Source of the DNA: Escherichia coli
Lineage (GTDB): Bacteria; Pseudomonadota; Gammaproteobacteria; Enterobacterales; Enterobacteriaceae
Strand: one strand, 5' to 3'
DNA: 64,000 nt
NCBI RefSeq assembly: GCF_011045215.1
Contig: NZ_CP049201.1
The notes beneath the pieces were generated by a model that saw only the letters and a program-made list of their open reading frames with translations, ran no database searches and was not told where the DNA came from. Below, in pieces: positions 27,373 through 35,271 of this stretch. The translations under genes and the position numbers were made by a program. Every line of letters starts with the position of its first letter. Position 1 is the first letter of the stretch.

Positions 27373-27461
27373 TCGCCCTCTTGAGGGTTTTTTTATCTTT
27401 TCTGACCAAATGCGTATTTTCATGAAAGGAGATCACTCAATAACCCCCTGTGTCAGCATAG

Positions 27462-28004
27462 TTGTCGCCTCAACTTTTTAAGGAGATAACAATGCCAGGA
27501 CAACCAATATCAAGTGAGCTCAAAGAGAAAGGACTGATATGGCTTTTACCACCATACTGCTGGTCACATCGTCAGATAGCCCGTAAGCTGAAGATCAGTG
27601 CCTCAGTTGTATCAAAATGGAGATATGAGTTAGTGGAGCAAGGACTTTTACCTGAAAATGAAAAGATTACCTCCGTTGATGTTGAAGACTGGACACCGGA
27701 GCGTCGATTCTCAGTTGTTCTTGAGACGGCTACGCTGTCAGAAATGGAGCTTGCTGATTATTGTCGACGCATGGGATTGTTTGTTGAACAGGTTAAAGAA
27801 TGGCGGGCTATCTCAATTCAGGCGCATGAAAAAAAATTGACGGAAAATATTCGAACAGACAGGGCATTGCGTGACGCAAAAAATAAGTTACGAGAACTGG
27901 AGAAAGAGCTTAAGCGCAAAGATAAAGCTCTGGCGGAAGCTGCAGCCCTGCTTATATTGAGGGAAAAGTTCAATGCCCTCTGGGACAACAGCGAGGAAGA
28001 CTGA
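27462..28004 (+). CDS. IS3-family transposase OrfA (HTH plus coiled-coil region)
   Basis: Track ORF; alternative start MPGQPISSELKEK at ~27492; leucine/charged-rich C-terminal region. Confidence 0.8.
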   Translation: MSPQLFKEITMPGQPISSELKEKGLIWLLPPYCWSHRQIARKLKISASVVSKWRYELVEQGLLPENEKITSVDVEDWTPERRFSVVLETATLSEMELADYCRRMGLFVEQVKEWRAISIQAHEKKLTENIRTDRALRDAKNKLRELEKELKRKDKALAEAAALLILREKFNALWDNSEED

Positions 28005-29029
28005 CCCCTCTCCTGGAGTGGCGTAAAATTATTGCTCTTGTCCGTGAGGCCATCTCCAACGGCGCCCGGAAAAGTCAGACTTGTAGGTGTATCGGTATTT
28101 CTATTCGGACACTTCAGCGCTGGACTGATGGCAACGTTATTACCACGGATCGAAGATCCGATACTGTAAACAGATCTCCCCGAAATAAGCTGTCAGAAGC
28201 GGAAAGATTGCAGATACTGGAGTTGTGCAACTCTCCAGAGTTTGCATCCTTGCCTCCAAATGTAATCGTGCCAACTCTGGCAGACAGAGGGACTTATATT
28301 GCTTCTGAATCAACCTTTTATCGTGTACTGAAATCAGCCAACCAGTTGACGAAAAGATCCCGAGAATGCCAGTACAAACGGCCTGATGTACTCAGGGCTG
28401 TTGCGCCGAATCAAGTCTGGAGTTGGGACATCAGCTATTTGCCGTCCTGGGTCAGAAGCCAGCATTTTTACCTCTATATGATCGTCGATATTTACAGTCG
28501 CAAAATTATTGCTGCAGAGGTATTTGCCAGCGAGTCTGGAACACATGCAGCAGAACTACTCCAGCGTGCAGTATGGAATGAAAAATGTTCATCCAACAAT
28601 CTGGTACTCCATTCTGATAACGGTGGTCCCATGCGCAGTTATACGTTGTTGGCGAAAATGTATGCGCTTGGAGTGCTAAGTTCTTATTCCCGGCCAAGAG
28701 TCAGCAATGATAACCCTTACTCAGAATCTTTGTTCCGGACTCTCAAATATTGTCCCTGGTGGCCTGAGAACGGTTTTCGCACTATTGATGATGCCAGAGT
28801 ATGGGTAAACCGTTTTGTAAACTGGTACAACTTTGAACATAAGCACAGCGGGATCAAATACGTCACGCCAGCCGAGCGTCATCAAGGTAATGACATGAAA
28901 ATACTGGCAGCCAGAAAAGCAGTATACCAGCTGGCACGCGAACAGCACCCTGAACGTTGGGGAAAGCATCTACGTAACTGGGACTACATATCAGAAGTCT
29001 ACCTGAATCCAGAAAAAGAGGCTGCATAA
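27990..29029 (+). CDS. IS3-family transposase OrfB (DDE integrase core), expected to be expressed by -1 frameshift from orfA
   Basis: ATG-bounded track ORF 28208..29029, but the frame is open upstream to ~27990 and overlaps the orfA end near GGGAAAAG; integrase-core region with W..D-/-D-/-E spacing (WSWDISY ... HSDNGGP ... ESLFRTLK). Start coordinate approximate. Confidence 0.75.
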
Positions 29030-29143
29030 CGTAATTTTATTACAAAAGGCGACAACTACCTTGAAAAACGCCGGTTACTCACCGATCTCCTTCACGGTAA
29101 TACGCAAATATCCACAACCTTGTTTGTTGTACCAGCGGAAATT

Positions 29144-29392
29144 TCACTCATAATCTGACCGTGTTTTTTTACGGAAGTTGAGTCTGTCCATCAGATTAAA
29201 AAACATTACAATAAATGTAATTACCGCCCCCGTAATACACCCCCATATAATACTTCTCACCACCTGCCCGTCCGGAATTAAAAAATTCCCTGTCGTAATG
29301 CATATGATAAACGACACCATTCCACCGACAAGAAAATAAGCAGATACACAAAAAATACAGGAACATACTAAAAGCTTGATGAAAAAAATCAC
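29144..29392 (-). CDS. Small hydrophobic membrane protein (82 aa)
   Basis: Track ORF; two predicted transmembrane segments. Confidence 0.35.
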   Translation of the reverse strand: MIFFIKLLVCSCIFCVSAYFLVGGMVSFIICITTGNFLIPDGQVVRSIIWGCITGAVITFIVMFFNLMDRLNFRKKTRSDYE

Positions 29393-33311: not shown

Positions 33312-33496
33312 AGGTATCCTTTACCGGAATGGCAAAAGATACAGATCAACACACCTGTGAAGTTCCAATAACATTGATGGAGATCACTGAATAACAAAAT
33401 GAGTCAAAAGTGATCTCCATCGATGTTATCATATCCTTACCCATAAATCCGAGTGATGTTATTCTGTTGATAAATTAACCATAATTTAGAGGAACT

Positions 33497-34912
33497 ATGG
33501 AAAACTGGGTTATTAAGGAGCTGGAATCTCTGAATGTTGGTGATATCAGGCTCGAAAAGCGAATAAAGCACGTTCTCAGTGTGCTTAGCCGTTCACCAAA
33601 GGAAAGTATTCCCGTATCCTGCCGTACCTGGAGTGAGACAAAAGCTGCTTATCGTTGCTTTTCCAGTGATAAAATTTCAGCCGATAAAATCATGGCTCCC
33701 CATAAGAAAAATATCATCGAAAGGACTAAACAGTTTAAACGGGCTCTGGTTTTACAGGATACGACTGAACTAAATTATTCTGGTCAAAAAAAGAAACAGG
33801 GCGTCGGTCCCAGACGACATGAAAATGAGCGAGATTTGTTTATTCACCCTCAATTGGTTATAAGTGATTCAGGTATTTGCTTAGGGGTTTATGATGATTA
33901 TCAATGGTTCAGAAAAGAACTCAAAACTCAGAAACAAAGTCGTAAAGAAATAACTAATGATTCACTTCACAGGAAACATATCAGTGAGAAAGAAACAGGA
34001 CGGTGGATAGAAGGATATAAAAAAGCAACAGAACTGGCTAGGTCCTGTCCTGATACCCAGATAATTTCTGTTTCAGACCGTGAAGGTGATATTTACGACC
34101 TCTTTGAGAGTGCAGAAAATGAAAGTGGGATAAAGGCTGACTGGCTCGTAAGAATGAAGAGCATTAACCGGGCTATACTGAATTCATCAGGAAAAAGAGA
34201 CTCATTACTCCTGAATGAAAAAATGATGCAGATTTTGCCACAGCAGATAATTGAGTTTACCCTTCCGGAAGGACGAGGACAACCTTCCCGCAAAGTCCAG
34301 CAGGAGCTACGCTTAGCAAGGTTGACGCTACATCCACCCACCGGTCGAAGAGGAAAGTTACGTTGTTCTCCGGTAACGGTAACTGTATTACTTGCAAAGG
34401 AAATAAATGCTCCAGAAAGTGTCCAGCCATTAGTATGGTGGCTAATGAGTAGTGTACCTCCAGAAAAGCTGACGGAACCCGCACAGCTTATTCAATGGTA
34501 TTTATTACGCTGGCAGATTGAAGTTTTCTTTAAGGTATTAAAAAGCGGATGTCAGGTTGAGAAATTACAACTTGAGACATTTGAACGCACAAGGAACTGT
34601 CTGGCCTTATACCTTATAATCTCATGGAGAATACTTTATCTTAGCTCATTGTATAAAATGGTTCCGGAGGAACCCTGTGATTTAATTTTCGAAAAGAAAG
34701 AATATGAGTATCTCTGGATATTGGTAGAGAATACGCCTCCACCTGAAAACATACCGAATATAAGAACGGCGGTTTTAATGCTTGCAAGATTAGGAGGATA
34801 TCTGGCAAGAAAAAATGATTCGCCTCCAGGCCCTAAGACTATATGGTCAGGATTAACACAATTAATGCTGTCAATTAATGCCATAGAAATAGCCCAGAAA
34901 ACTTGTGGGTAA
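33497..34912 (+). CDS. IS4-family (Tn5/IS50-like) DDE transposase (471 aa)
   Basis: Track ORF; C-terminal YLLRWQIEVFFKVLKSGCQVEKLQLE region resembling the Tn5 transposase YREK region; element boundaries not resolved. Confidence 0.75.
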   Translation: MENWVIKELESLNVGDIRLEKRIKHVLSVLSRSPKESIPVSCRTWSETKAAYRCFSSDKISADKIMAPHKKNIIERTKQFKRALVLQDTTELNYSGQKKKQGVGPRRHENERDLFIHPQLVISDSGICLGVYDDYQWFRKELKTQKQSRKEITNDSLHRKHISEKETGRWIEGYKKATELARSCPDTQIISVSDREGDIYDLFESAENESGIKADWLVRMKSINRAILNSSGKRDSLLLNEKMMQILPQQIIEFTLPEGRGQPSRKVQQELRLARLTLHPPTGRRGKLRCSPVTVTVLLAKEINAPESVQPLVWWLMSSVPPEKLTEPAQLIQWYLLRWQIEVFFKVLKSGCQVEKLQLETFERTRNCLALYLIISWRILYLSSLYKMVPEEPCDLIFEKKEYEYLWILVENTPPPENIPNIRTAVLMLARLGGYLARKNDSPPGPKTIWSGLTQLMLSINAIEIAQKTCG

Positions 34913-34950
34913 GGGTATGCGATGTTATTCAGCGATCTGTTCAAATGTTA

Positions 34951-35271
34951 TTACCCGATCTCGATGGAAGTTATTGAGTGATCTCCTTTCATGAAAATAC
35001 GCACCTCCTTCTCGCTCCTGAAAGATGGACAGTTTTGTATTCTTCGTTCATATTCACAGGTAACCTGCCCCAGAATATCCTCCGGCGGTGTCAGCCACTT
35101 ATTCCTGAGCAATACACTGGTTGATGAATGGCAGCAGGCTATTTCAGCAATAATTTCATGTAATATCTCCGGCCTGAATTTCTTCAGTTCATTGTGATGT
35201 TCCCGGGTAAAACCATGTTCATCGAACAAAAGCTGCCATATCATTGATATACTTCCTTTATTCATCATCAA
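34951..35271 (-). CDS. Hypothetical protein, 3'-truncated by IS insertion (reading frame runs into the IS terminal repeat)
   Basis: Track ORF; the last 13 codons (MKGDHSITSIEIG*) are encoded by the IS3-type repeat at 34961-34993. Confidence 0.35.
   Translation of the reverse strand: MMMNKGSISMIWQLLFDEHGFTREHHNELKKFRPEILHEIIAEIACCHSSTSVLLRNKWLTPPEDILGQVTCEYERRIQNCPSFRSEKEVRIFMKGDHSITSIEIG
34961..34993 (-). repeat. Isolated inverted copy of the IS3-family left terminal repeat
   Basis: Reverse complement reads TGCGTATTTTCATGAAAGGAGATCACTCAATAAC, identical to 27411-27444. Confidence 0.7.

What the first reader, a model, noticed from the sequence alone, without database searches (positions are those of the whole stretch)
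27411..34993. Nested IS cluster whose element ends share a GGAGATC-containing terminal motif; flanking genes read into IS ends
An IS3-family element (27411-29106), an IS21-family element (30953-33428) and an IS4-family transposase gene (33497-34912) lie back to back. Copies of the IS3-type terminal repeats occur at 27411, 29073, 30924 and 34961, the last two isolated and inverted, and the IS21-family termini carry a related TAACATCGATGGAGATC motif. The outermost IS3-type repeats are both left-end copies in opposite orientation, which suggests recombination between two IS copies (inversion or deletion) rather than simple insertion. The ORFs at 34951-35271 and 30521-30958 terminate or initiate inside IS ends, and a startless gene fragment lies at 27066-27372.
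Basis: seen in the sequence. Interest (0 to 1): 0.45.

Follow-up and report, generated by a model that had tools for sequence, protein, structure and literature searches.

The report
Insertion sequences nested in ISEc12 ends
The region holds two copies of a known IS21-family insertion sequence (ISEc12), one hollowed out and one interrupted by other insertion sequences; as gene damage this is ordinary, but it reveals an IS3-family element that inserts specifically into the end repeats of IS21-family elements and destroys them.

Summary
The 33-nt TGCGTATT... termini are the true tips of the IS21-family element ISEc12, not IS3 repeats. The recurring GGAGATC motifs are its 23-bp-spaced terminal repeat units.

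- **ISEc12 copy.** It spans 30924-35003 (2,581 bp of its own sequence) and has a clean 5-bp duplication, CCTCC. It splits one 221-codon gene that is intact in E. coli C5.
- **Nested IS4-family element.** It lies at 33430-34919 (1,490 bp), inside the ISEc12 left-end repeats, with a 9-bp duplication CGATGTTAT.
- **The "IS3 element" (27411-29106).** This is a complete IS3-family IS ("ISX", 27444-29073) between the two outermost ISEc12 repeat units.
- **ISX targeting.** In all 43 junctions from the annotated E. coli records examined, ISX abuts an IS21-family repeat unit, nearly always in one fixed register. It makes 4-bp duplications there.
- **Origin of the mini-elements.** At one E. coli locus I found four states: full ISEc12, tip-ISX-tip in both orientations, and an empty 62-bp shell. 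So these mini-elements form in place.

The window's copy has no duplication. It truncates yfdX and marks a rearrangement breakpoint. The cluster itself is ordinary. I found no prior description of the ISX targeting.

The parts
27066..27410 (-). 3' fragment of a yfdX-family gene, cut off by the element to its right
   Evidence: Translation. Pfam YfdX E 2.9e-27, profile positions 45-146 of 149. 94% identical to part of the intact 203-aa yfdX of E. coli C5. The 5' part is absent from the window.
27411..27443 (+). ISEc12 left-tip repeat unit L1 (TGCGTATTTTCATGAAAGGAGATCACTCAATAA), detached from its element
   Evidence: 100% identical to 35003-34970 and to the left tip of intact ISEc12 copies (L001; L230).
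27444..29073 (+). Complete IS3-family insertion sequence 'ISX' (1,630 bp). Tips are CCCCCTGTGTCAGCATAGTTGTCGCC ... GGCGACAACTACCTTGAAAAACGCCG. orfA is 27492-28004. orfB is in the -1 frame, open from 27926 and ending at 29029.
   Evidence: Pfam HTH_Tnp_1, rve, rve_3. NCBIfam transpos_IS3 169 bits, cutoff 160. RefSeq annotates the homologues as a programmed-frameshift IS3 transposase. The same tips bound relatives in Pseudomonas, Vibrio and Cupriavidus, where copies in one genome diverge exactly outside them.
29074..29106 (-). ISEc12 right-tip repeat unit R1, detached
   Evidence: 100% complementary to 30924-30956. Identical to the right tip of intact ISEc12 (L001).
29107..30918 (-). Island DNA: HTH protein gene (29613-30248), DUF465 gene (30282-30524) and the 3' half of the split gene (30521-30923)
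   Evidence: Pfam. 98% identical to E. coli C5 5290549-5292377. Homology with C5 begins exactly at 29107.
30919..30923 (.). CCTCC, left copy of the 5-bp target duplication of ISEc12
   Evidence: C5 has a single CCTCC at this point.
30924..35003 (-). ISEc12 (IS21 family): 2,581 bp of its own sequence carrying a nested IS4-family element. istB is 31009-31758 and istA is 31770-33311. The right-end repeat array is 30924-31026. The left-end array is 33367-33429 plus 34920-35003.
   Evidence: Pfam IstB_IS21 E 2e-67; rve plus Mu-transpos_C_2. NCBIfam IS21 models. Collinear with intact 2,581-bp ISEc12 in L001 and L230. The 5-bp duplication matches the published ISEc12 value (PMC10711316).
33421..33429 (.). 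CGATGTTAT, left copy of the 9-bp target duplication of the IS4-family element; it straddles the L3|L4 unit boundary of ISEc12
   Evidence: Intact ISEc12 reads ...CCATCGATGTTATTCAGCG... with a single copy.
33430..34919 (+). IS4-family (Tn5-like) insertion sequence, 1,490 bp. Terminal repeats are CATATCCTTACCCA / CATACCCTTACCCA (13 of 14). The transposase gene is 33497-34912.
   Evidence: Pfam Tnp_DNA_bind, DDE_Tnp_1, Dimer_Tnp_Tn5. NCBIfam transpos_IS4_3. Positions 1-1490 are 100% identical in E. coli C5, 357900 and 52F4, and 99.9% in Ceylon31. Terminal repeats.
34920..34928 (.). CGATGTTAT, right copy of the 9-bp duplication
35004..35008 (.). CCTCC, right copy of the ISEc12 target duplication
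35004..35597 (-). 5' half of the split 221-codon gene (35004-35271) and the upstream perC-family gene (35268-35597)
   Evidence: Joining 35271..35009 to 30923..30521 gives one uninterrupted 221-aa ORF. The C5 homologue, WP_057697922.1, is intact. Pfam PerC E 1e-32.

Best explanation
The region contains two ISEc12-tipped elements in inverted orientation, separated by 1.8 kb of island DNA.

**Right-hand element: an ordinary ISEc12 insertion**
- It inserted into a 221-codon gene downstream of perC, with a 5-bp duplication CCTCC.
- A 1,490-bp IS4-family IS later landed in its left-end repeat array, with a 9-bp duplication.
- The GGAGATC motifs are the 23-bp-spaced repeat units that IS21-family transposases (IstA) bind.

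**Left-hand element: an ISEc12 'carcass'**
- Only the outermost repeat unit of each end survives (33 nt each). Between them sits a complete IS3-family IS, ISX.
- ISX is a site-specific invader of IS21-family ends. It inserts at the boundary after a repeat unit, 9 nt beyond the unit's GATC core, and makes its own 4-bp duplication.
- When ISX sits in both ends of one ISEc12, recombination between the two ISX copies inverts the ISEc12 interior. If the copies are in direct orientation, it should instead delete the interior and leave tip-ISX-tip.
- The 5-bp duplications around such units (6-bp for ISSso4-type tips) are inherited from the original IS21-family insertion.

**What is shown and what is inferred**
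- Shown: the anatomy, the duplications, the insertion register, the inversion, and the origin in place at one locus.
- Inferred: the deletion step. Also inferred is that the window's own unit, which lacks a duplication, was later involved in a rearrangement.
For: **The TGCGTATT termini belong to ISEc12**
- Intact 2,581-bp ISEc12 copies with no ISX end in exactly these 33/34 nt and carry 5-bp duplications: L001 ACAAC and L230 CCAGG.
- The published ISEc12 duplication is also 5 bp (PMC10711316).
- L1 is the first of four 23-bp-phased units, each ending in ATAAC. This fits the L1/L2 and R1/R2 repeats spaced 23 bp apart that are described for IS21-family ends (PMC10122671).

**The window's ISEc12 is a simple insertion**
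- CCTCC flanks it on both sides, the split ORF is restored on removal, and C5 holds the empty site.

**ISX is a complete IS**
- Relatives at 51-81% amino-acid identity, found among 518 hits, share the tips CCCCC(G/T)GTGTCAG.. and ..AAAACGCCG.
- Copies within one genome diverge exactly outside those tips.
- Three of four copies in Pseudomonas sp. CC6-YY-74 have 4-bp duplications.

**ISX targets IS21-family repeat units**
- All 43 non-redundant junctions in the annotated E. coli records abut such a unit. GATC lies at -13 in 35, at -14 in 2, and at -18 (the inner side of the duplication) in 4. The last 2 abut a degenerate unit.
- This holds for ISEc12-type, ISSso4-type and a third type of end.
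- ISX haplotypes do not track the type of tip. A SNP 7 nt from the boundary follows the ISX clade.

**Recombination between ISX copies**
- pDEC9B-1 (L106) is a single ISEc12 insertion (duplication ATATA) with inverted ISX copies in both ends and its interior inverted.
- Swapping the halves of the two copies restores perfect 4-bp duplications, TTAC and TTAT.

**Origin in place**
- At the CCAGG site, 43 genomes carry the flank plus the L1-L2-L3 units. SF-088, the one copy inspected in full, is an intact 2,581-bp ISEc12.
- PA45B has L1-ISX(+)-R1.
- A metagenome contig has the opposite ISX orientation (L159).
- Ecol_276 has a 62-bp empty shell.
Against: - No ISEc12 with two ISX copies in direct orientation was seen. 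That is the proposed deletion precursor, so the step is inferred. It may simply be too unstable to observe.
- Beside ISX in otherwise full ISEc12 copies, units L2+L3 (L002, L106) or L2 (L107) are missing. A simple insertion does not predict this.
- ISX orientation within the shells is skewed, about 12 to 3. That fits some spread of whole units, or an orientation bias.
- The window's own unit has no duplication, so its history is argued by analogy with other loci.
- Pseudomonas corrugata ISX copies show no duplication.
Confidence: 0.85

Rival explanations
1. The TGCGTATT repeats are the IS3-family element's own inverted repeats. The copies at 30924 and 35003 are remnants of a second IS3 copy, disrupted by IS21 and IS4 insertions or left behind by recombination between two IS3 copies.
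For: The 1,696-bp unit does look like a standard IS: TG...CA tips, 33-nt imperfect inverted repeats, and two frameshifted ORFs. It recurs full-length in 101 plasmid records and 273 E. coli records from 256 genomes.
Against: - Intact ISEc12 copies carry these tips with no IS3 sequence inside.
- The same ISX body, 98-100% identical, occurs between quite different tips, of ISSso4 type.
- ISX relatives elsewhere end at CCCCC...CGCCG without such tips.
- The 30924-35003 element has its own intact 5-bp duplication and restores an ORF on removal.
Confidence: 0.03
2. The tip-ISX-tip units are hybrid mobile elements that spread as units. Either IstA/IstB of a resident ISEc12 or ISSso4-like element moves them in trans, or the ISX transposase uses the borrowed IS21 tips.
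For: - Duplication length follows tip type. ISEc12-type units give 5, 5, 5, 5 and one 5-or-6. ISSso4-type and the third type give 6, 6, 6, 6 and one 5. ISX's own is 4 bp.
- ISX orientation in the shells is skewed about 12 to 3.
- ISX OrfA residues 1-52 are 42% identical to the N-terminal HTH of ISEc12 IstA (E 1e-5). Fourteen relatives outside Enterobacterales show no such match.
Against: - The duplication lengths are fully explained by inheritance from the original full-length insertion, as seen directly at the CCAGG locus.
- IS5376 IstA needs two complete repeats per end in vitro (PMC10122671). The shells keep only one.
- Class B shells carry at least three different L1 variants, which implies repeated independent formation.
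Confidence: 0.2
3. There is no target specificity. ISX and the IS4-family element are found in IS21-family ends only because insertions there are harmless and are carried along when the host IS moves (a safe-haven or hitch-hiking effect).
For: Two unrelated ISs, ISX and the IS4-family element, both accumulate in these arrays. Nested ISs are common in IS-rich islands.
Against: - Neutral accumulation would scatter insertions along the 2.6-kb host. Instead 41 of 43 ISX junctions sit in a single-nucleotide register relative to GATC, and they do so in three different IS21-family hosts.
- No enterobacterial ISX copy in the sample lacked an IS21-type unit on both sides.
Confidence: 0.03

Closest known systems
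ISEc12 (IS21 family; istA/istB)
   Same: The element at 30924-35003 is ISEc12. It has the same 2,581 bp, tips, repeat arrays and 5-bp duplication as the copies RefSeq names ISEc12 and as published (PMC10711316).
   Different: This copy carries a nested IS4-family element that separates repeat units L1-L3 from L4 and from istA. A second copy is reduced to its two outermost units.
IS1397 / ISKpn1 (IS3 family, insert into REP/BIME palindromic units). Recalled from memory, not checked here.
   Same: An IS3-family element with strict insertion into a short repeated sequence, at a fixed position.
   Different: The ISX target is the terminal transposase-binding repeat of another IS family, so insertion disables a competitor element. 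ISX tips are CCCCC...CGCCG, with the usual TG/CA lying 7 nt inside.
IS4321 / IS5075 (IS1111 group) in the 38-bp inverted repeats of Tn21-family transposons, and IS231A in Tn4430 ends. Recalled from memory.
   Same: An IS that homes to the terminal repeats of another transposon at a defined position.
   Different: A different transposase class (DDE IS3-type with a 4-bp duplication, not DEDD without duplication). Here the follow-on recombination converts the host IS into a minimal shell around the invader.
MITEs / non-autonomous IS derivatives
   Same: The tip-ISX-tip units and the 62-68-bp empty shells (L023, L024) have the form of IS21-derived miniature elements.
   Different: They keep only one repeat unit per end. 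At the one locus tested they formed in place rather than by transposition. Mobility is unproven.

Membership tests
IS21 family (element 30924-35003) | Two consecutive genes, istA (HTH + DDE transposase) and istB (AAA+ helper) | tested here: met
   Pfam rve + Mu-transpos_C_2 and IstB_IS21 (E 2e-67). NCBIfam transpos_IS21 and IS21_help_AAA above cutoff.
IS21 family (element 30924-35003) | TG...CA tips and multiple direct repeat units in each end, about 23 bp apart | tested here: met
   Tips are TGCGTATT.../...AATACGCA. Units L1-L4 and R1-R2 are in 23-bp phase. The family property is described in PMC10122671.
IS21 family (element 30924-35003) | Short target duplication (5 bp for ISEc12) | tested here: met
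   CCTCC on both sides. The empty site in C5 has one copy. Published value is 5 bp.
IS3 family (ISX, 27444-29073) | orfA and orfB in relative -1 frame, fused by programmed frameshift; a DDE (rve) catalytic domain in OrfB | tested here: met
   orfA is in frame 0 and orfB in frame -1, with a 78-nt overlap. rve E 3e-15. NCBIfam transpos_IS3 169 bits against a cutoff of 160. RefSeq marks the homologues 'programmed frameshift'. Frameshifting itself was not tested.
IS3 family (ISX, 27444-29073) | Terminal inverted repeats ending 5'-TG...CA-3' | tested here: not met
   The conserved tips are CCCCC(T/G)GTGTCAG... and ...AAAACGCCG. In relatives the TG and CA lie 7 nt inside (e.g. Cupriavidus, Thiocystis). 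In the E. coli copies the right-hand CA is TGAAA rather than TGACA.
IS3 family (ISX, 27444-29073) | 3-5 bp target duplication | tested here: met
   4 bp in each case: TTAT (L002), TTAC and TTAT (L106, after swapping halves), and AGAG/ACAG/AGAC in Pseudomonas sp. CC6-YY-74. None was seen in P. corrugata copies.
IS4 family, Tn5/IS50-like (33430-34919) | Single DDE_Tnp_1 transposase with a Tn5-type N-terminal DNA-binding domain and C-terminal dimerisation domain; short terminal inverted repeats; 9-bp duplication | tested here: met
   Pfam. NCBIfam transpos_IS4_3, 347 bits. Terminal repeats 13 of 14. Duplication CGATGTTAT; TTGGCATTC in L008.
Mobile non-autonomous IS21 derivative (unit 27411-29106) | Two functional ends sufficient for IstA, i.e. 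two repeats per end | tested here: not met
   Only L1 and R1 (33 nt each) remain. IS5376 IstA needs two complete repeats in vitro (PMC10122671).
Mobile non-autonomous IS21 derivative (unit 27411-29106) | Copies at new sites that were never occupied by the full-length parent | tested here: inconclusive
   The one site tested (CCAGG) is occupied by full-length ISEc12 in other strains. The other unit sites were not tested.

The most novel reading that the evidence does not exclude
ISX is a dedicated hunter of IS21-family elements. Its transposase carries an extra N-terminal helix-turn-helix that resembles HTH-1 of ISEc12 IstA. It may use this to dock on IstA-binding repeats, or it may recognise the sharp bend that IstA induces at the R1-R2 junction. 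It then integrates precisely at the unit boundary. The result severs the host IS from its tips and, after recombination, replaces it. That would be direct antagonism or parasitism between two IS families, and it could shape IS21-family copy number in Enterobacterales.
Probability: 0.35. Interest if true: 0.6.

Novelty: new variant of a known kind. Interest (0 to 1): 0.42.

Why it matters
- **For annotation.** The 1.7-kb "IS3 family" units, present in about 5% of complete E. coli genomes, are chimeras of an IS3-family IS and IS21-family tips. Their terminal repeats and duplications should not be used to define an IS3 element. ISEc12 boundaries drawn at the inner repeats are about 100 bp too short.
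- **For biology.** An IS that homes to the transposase-binding repeats of another IS family would be a clean natural system for studying target choice by a DDE transposase. It would also be an example of one selfish element disabling another.
- **For this window.** One island gene is inactivated by a plain ISEc12 insertion. yfdX is truncated at a rearrangement breakpoint.

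Tried and rejected
1. **Trans-mobilisation by IstA/IstB.** I first read the match between duplication length and tip type (5 bp against 6 bp) as evidence that the mini-units are moved in trans. I downgraded this after finding full-length ISEc12 at the same site with the same duplication, and the in-vitro need for two repeats per end.
2. **Concerted evolution.** Gene conversion homogenising two old lineages of 1.7-kb units was rejected. 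Body haplotypes, including a SNP 7 nt from the boundary, are independent of tip type.
3. **Insertion into empty shells.** ISX inserting into pre-existing empty shells was rejected as the main route. The filled junctions show no 4-bp duplication of shell sequence.
4. **Recent swap of the istA 5' end into ISX orfA.** Not supported. Nucleotide identity is only about 50-55%.
5. **General association with IS21 genes.** A tblastn of IstA/IstB against 200 loci holding ISX relatives found neighbours in only 3. The association is shown only for Enterobacterales.
6. **The 67-nt L1+R1 BLAST.** It mostly returned tandem ISEc12 junctions or nearby elements, so its count of 2,273 genomes is not a MITE count.
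7. **Literature.** Searches for ISEc12, ISSso4 and IS21/IS3/MITE found no description of this association. ISfinder could not be queried, so ISX may have a name I could not find.

Full report
**Checking the observation**

The repeats are real. The repeat finder gives two perfect pairs: 27411-27444 with 34970-35003, and 29074-29106 with 30924-30956. It also finds TAACATCGATGGAGATC at 30953 and, inverted, at 33412. GGAGATC occurs 13 times in the window against 6.35 expected, and ten of those lie between 27428 and 34986. Pfam and NCBIfam confirm three transposase sets: an IS3-type orfA/orfB pair, an istA/istB pair, and a Tn5-like IS4-family transposase. The two small ORFs do start or stop inside the repeats.

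**What the TGCGTATT repeats are**

E. coli genomes hold many copies of ISEc12. An intact copy in strain 51008369SK1 (L001) runs from TGCGTATTACCGTGAAGGAGATCGGTGAGTAAC to GTTATTGAGTGATCTCCTTTCATGAAAATACGCA. It is 2,581 bp long, contains no IS3 sequence and is flanked by ACAAC. A second intact copy in SF-088 is also 2,581 bp and is flanked by CCAGG. A 5-bp duplication is published for ISEc12 (PMC10711316).

Read inward from the left tip, the sequence is a phased array of units, each ending in ATAAC: a 34-nt L1, then 23-nt L2 and L3, then L4 and an inverted unit. The right end has R1, R2 and an inverted unit. This is the organisation described for IS21-family ends. Those ends have L1/L2 and R1/R2 repeats 23 bp apart, which IstA binds, and both repeats are needed in vitro (PMC10122671). 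The "IS21 termini" at 30953 and 33428 are the inner units R2 and L4.

**The right-hand element**

ISEc12 occupies 30924-35003. CCTCC lies on both sides, at 30919-30923 and 35004-35008. Deleting the element and one CCTCC joins ORF 34951-35271 to ORF 30521-30958 as one 221-codon frame. E. coli C5 carries the homologous island with this gene intact (222 aa, downstream of perC) and a single CCTCC.

Compared with intact ISEc12, the window has extra DNA between ...CCATCGATGTTAT and TCAGCG.... This is 33430-34919, bounded by CATATCCTTACCCA / CATACCCTTACCCA and by a duplicated CGATGTTAT. The same 1,490 bp occur end to end at 100% identity in E. coli C5, 357900 and 52F4. It is therefore a complete IS4-family IS that made a 9-bp duplication.

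**The left-hand element**

27411-29106 looks like a 1,696-bp IS3 element, and it recurs as such in 101 plasmid records and 256 E. coli genomes. However, many BLAST hits stop exactly 33 nt short of each end. In those records the same 1,630-bp body, 96-100% identical, lies between different termini. These are the outermost units of an ISSso4-like IS21-family element, TGCAAAATGGCATCTGAATCGATC... and TGCGTATTCCGCTCTATTCGATC..., or a third type.

The body haplotypes fall into three subclades, and each contains both tip types. A SNP 7 nt from the boundary follows the body, not the tips. Two copies in different shells are 100% identical.

Relatives of the body's OrfB were found in 518 places across Proteobacteria. 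The best 80 are 51-81% identical. They share the end sequences CCCCC(G/T)GTGTCAG-TAGTTGTCGC and CGGCGTTTTTCAAGG-TAGTTGTCGC, and copies within one genome diverge exactly outside them. Three of four copies in Pseudomonas sp. CC6-YY-74 have 4-bp duplications.

The body, window 27444-29073, is therefore a complete IS. I call it ISX. The 33 nt on either side of it are detached ISEc12 units L1 and R1.

**How ISX gets there**

In every E. coli record examined, ISX abuts an IS21-family repeat unit. Of 43 non-redundant junctions:

| GATC position relative to the ISX tip | Junctions |
|---|---|
| -13 | 35 |
| -14 | 2 |
| -18 (the inner side of the duplication) | 4 |
| degenerate unit, no GATC | 2 |

. 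Metagenome contigs add further examples and some hybrid shells.

Full ISEc12 copies carrying ISX show its own 4-bp duplication, for example TTAT in strain EC16.

Plasmid pDEC9B-1 is the key intermediate. It has one ISEc12 insertion (duplication ATATA) with ISX in both ends in inverted orientation and its interior flipped, so L1 now adjoins R2 and R1 adjoins L4. Exchanging the halves of the two ISX copies restores perfect duplications TTAC and TTAT. This shows recombination between the copies. Copies in direct orientation would instead delete the interior and leave L1-ISX-R1. That step is inferred, because I did not see such a precursor.

**Where the mini-units come from**

ISEc12-type units at five independent sites have 5-bp duplications (one could be 6 bp). 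ISSso4-type and third-type units have 6, 6, 6, 6 and 5 bp. These match their parent elements, not ISX's 4 bp. I first took this as evidence for mobilisation by IstA/IstB in trans.

A direct test argues otherwise. At the CCAGG site, 43 E. coli genomes carry flank + L1 + L2 + L3 at 100% identity, and SF-088 has a complete ISEc12 there. PA45B has L1-ISX(+)-R1 at the same site with the same duplication. A metagenome contig has ISX in the opposite orientation (L159). Ecol_276 has a 62-bp empty shell.

The units therefore form in place, and the duplication is inherited from the original insertion. Spread of whole units is not excluded. ISX orientation in shells is skewed about 12 to 3. But the shells keep only one repeat per end.

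**The window's own unit**

It has no duplication (ccaaa / aatat). Its left flank is the 3' part of yfdX (Pfam positions 45-146 of 149). The gene is intact in C5, and its 5' part is absent from the window. Homology with C5 on the right begins exactly at 29107, in a segment that lies 47 kb from yfdX and inverted in C5. The unit therefore marks a rearrangement breakpoint. Whether it was an inversion or a deletion cannot be told from 64 kb.

**A possible basis for targeting**

ISX OrfA (true start at 27492, MPGQPIS...) has two HTH regions. Residues 1-52 are 42% identical to residues 1-51 of ISEc12 IstA, with SHRQIARKLKISASVVSKW against SHRQIGRSLAISPSVVSRY (E 1e-5). The Photorhabdus relative shares this similarity, but 14 relatives outside Enterobacterales do not. 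Nucleotide identity is only about 50%, so this is not a recent swap.

In the IS5376 structure, IstA HTH-1 contacts each repeat and the DNA is sharply bent near the R1-R2 junction. That junction is where ISX inserts. This is a hypothesis, not a result.

**Comparison with known systems, and novelty**

ISEc12 and the gene disruption are known and ordinary. ISX passes most IS3-family tests: frameshifted ORFs, an rve domain and a 4-bp duplication. It fails the TG...CA tip rule.

Homing of an IS to another transposon's terminal repeats is a known kind of behaviour. From memory, examples are IS4321/IS5075 in Tn21 repeats, IS231A in Tn4430 ends, and IS1397 in REP units. An IS3-family element homing to IS21-family repeat junctions and hollowing out its host was not found in the literature I could search, and ISfinder was not available. 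I rate it a new variant of a known kind, of moderate interest.

Noticed in passing
window 33421-34928; L007 6001-7490; L008 6001-7490; L009 3001-4489: The 1,490-bp IS4-family element sits at a unit boundary of an IS21-family left-end repeat array in all four contexts seen: ISEc12 here and ISSso4-like elements elsewhere. The 9-bp duplication is TTGGCATTC in L008 and imperfect in L007. It may share ISX's preference for these arrays, or it may be hitch-hiking.
   Followed up: partly
L022 301-369 (E. coli 4/1-1 chromosome 2230267-2230335): Two ISEc12 copies lie in tandem with their R1 and L1 tips abutted and separated by only AC. This is the kind of reactive IRR-IRL junction known from IS21 tandems.
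   Followed up: no
L110, L199, L208, L211, L213, L222 (metagenome contigs), 8-25 nt outside the ISX left tip: Environmental copies carrying the identical 26-nt ISX left tip share a flank motif resembling TAAGTCCTAAGGACAT. Other members of the family may have a different specific target. IstA/IstB genes were found next to only 3 of 200 such loci.
   Followed up: partly
L002 4990-5010, L106 6690-6715, L107 4970-5000: Where ISX sits in the left end of an otherwise full ISEc12, repeat units L2+L3 (46 nt) or L2 (23 nt) are missing, although a perfect TTAT duplication flanks ISX. Slippage between phased units, or two insertions plus recombination, could explain this. It is not resolved.
   Followed up: partly
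L003 3440-3500 and 5196-5260 (plasmid pMRY16-002_1): The tip-ISX-tip unit has no short duplication here. Instead it is flanked by a direct repeat of more than 55 bp of plasmid sequence (gtgatataagacggtaattcacc...).
   Followed up: no
L164, L168, L169, L186 (metagenome contigs); L149: Hybrid shells occur, with an ISEc12 L1 unit on one side of ISX and ISSso4-type L1-L2 units on the other. This is what recombination between ISX copies in different IS21-family elements would produce.
   Followed up: no
L037, L038, L039, L046 (Pseudomonas corrugata) versus L040, L041, L043 (Pseudomonas sp. CC6-YY-74): ISX relatives show clean 4-bp target duplications in one Pseudomonas genome and none in four copies from another. 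The run of C at the left tip varies from 5 to 10.
   Followed up: no
window 25834-26475 and 24798-25730; 26421-27000: Left of the yfdX fragment lie an AraC-type regulator ORF, an EAL-domain-like ORF and about 300 bp matching an IS630-family transposase remnant (query positions 835-1150). The island is a patchwork of fragments found on the C5 plasmid and chromosome.
   Followed up: no
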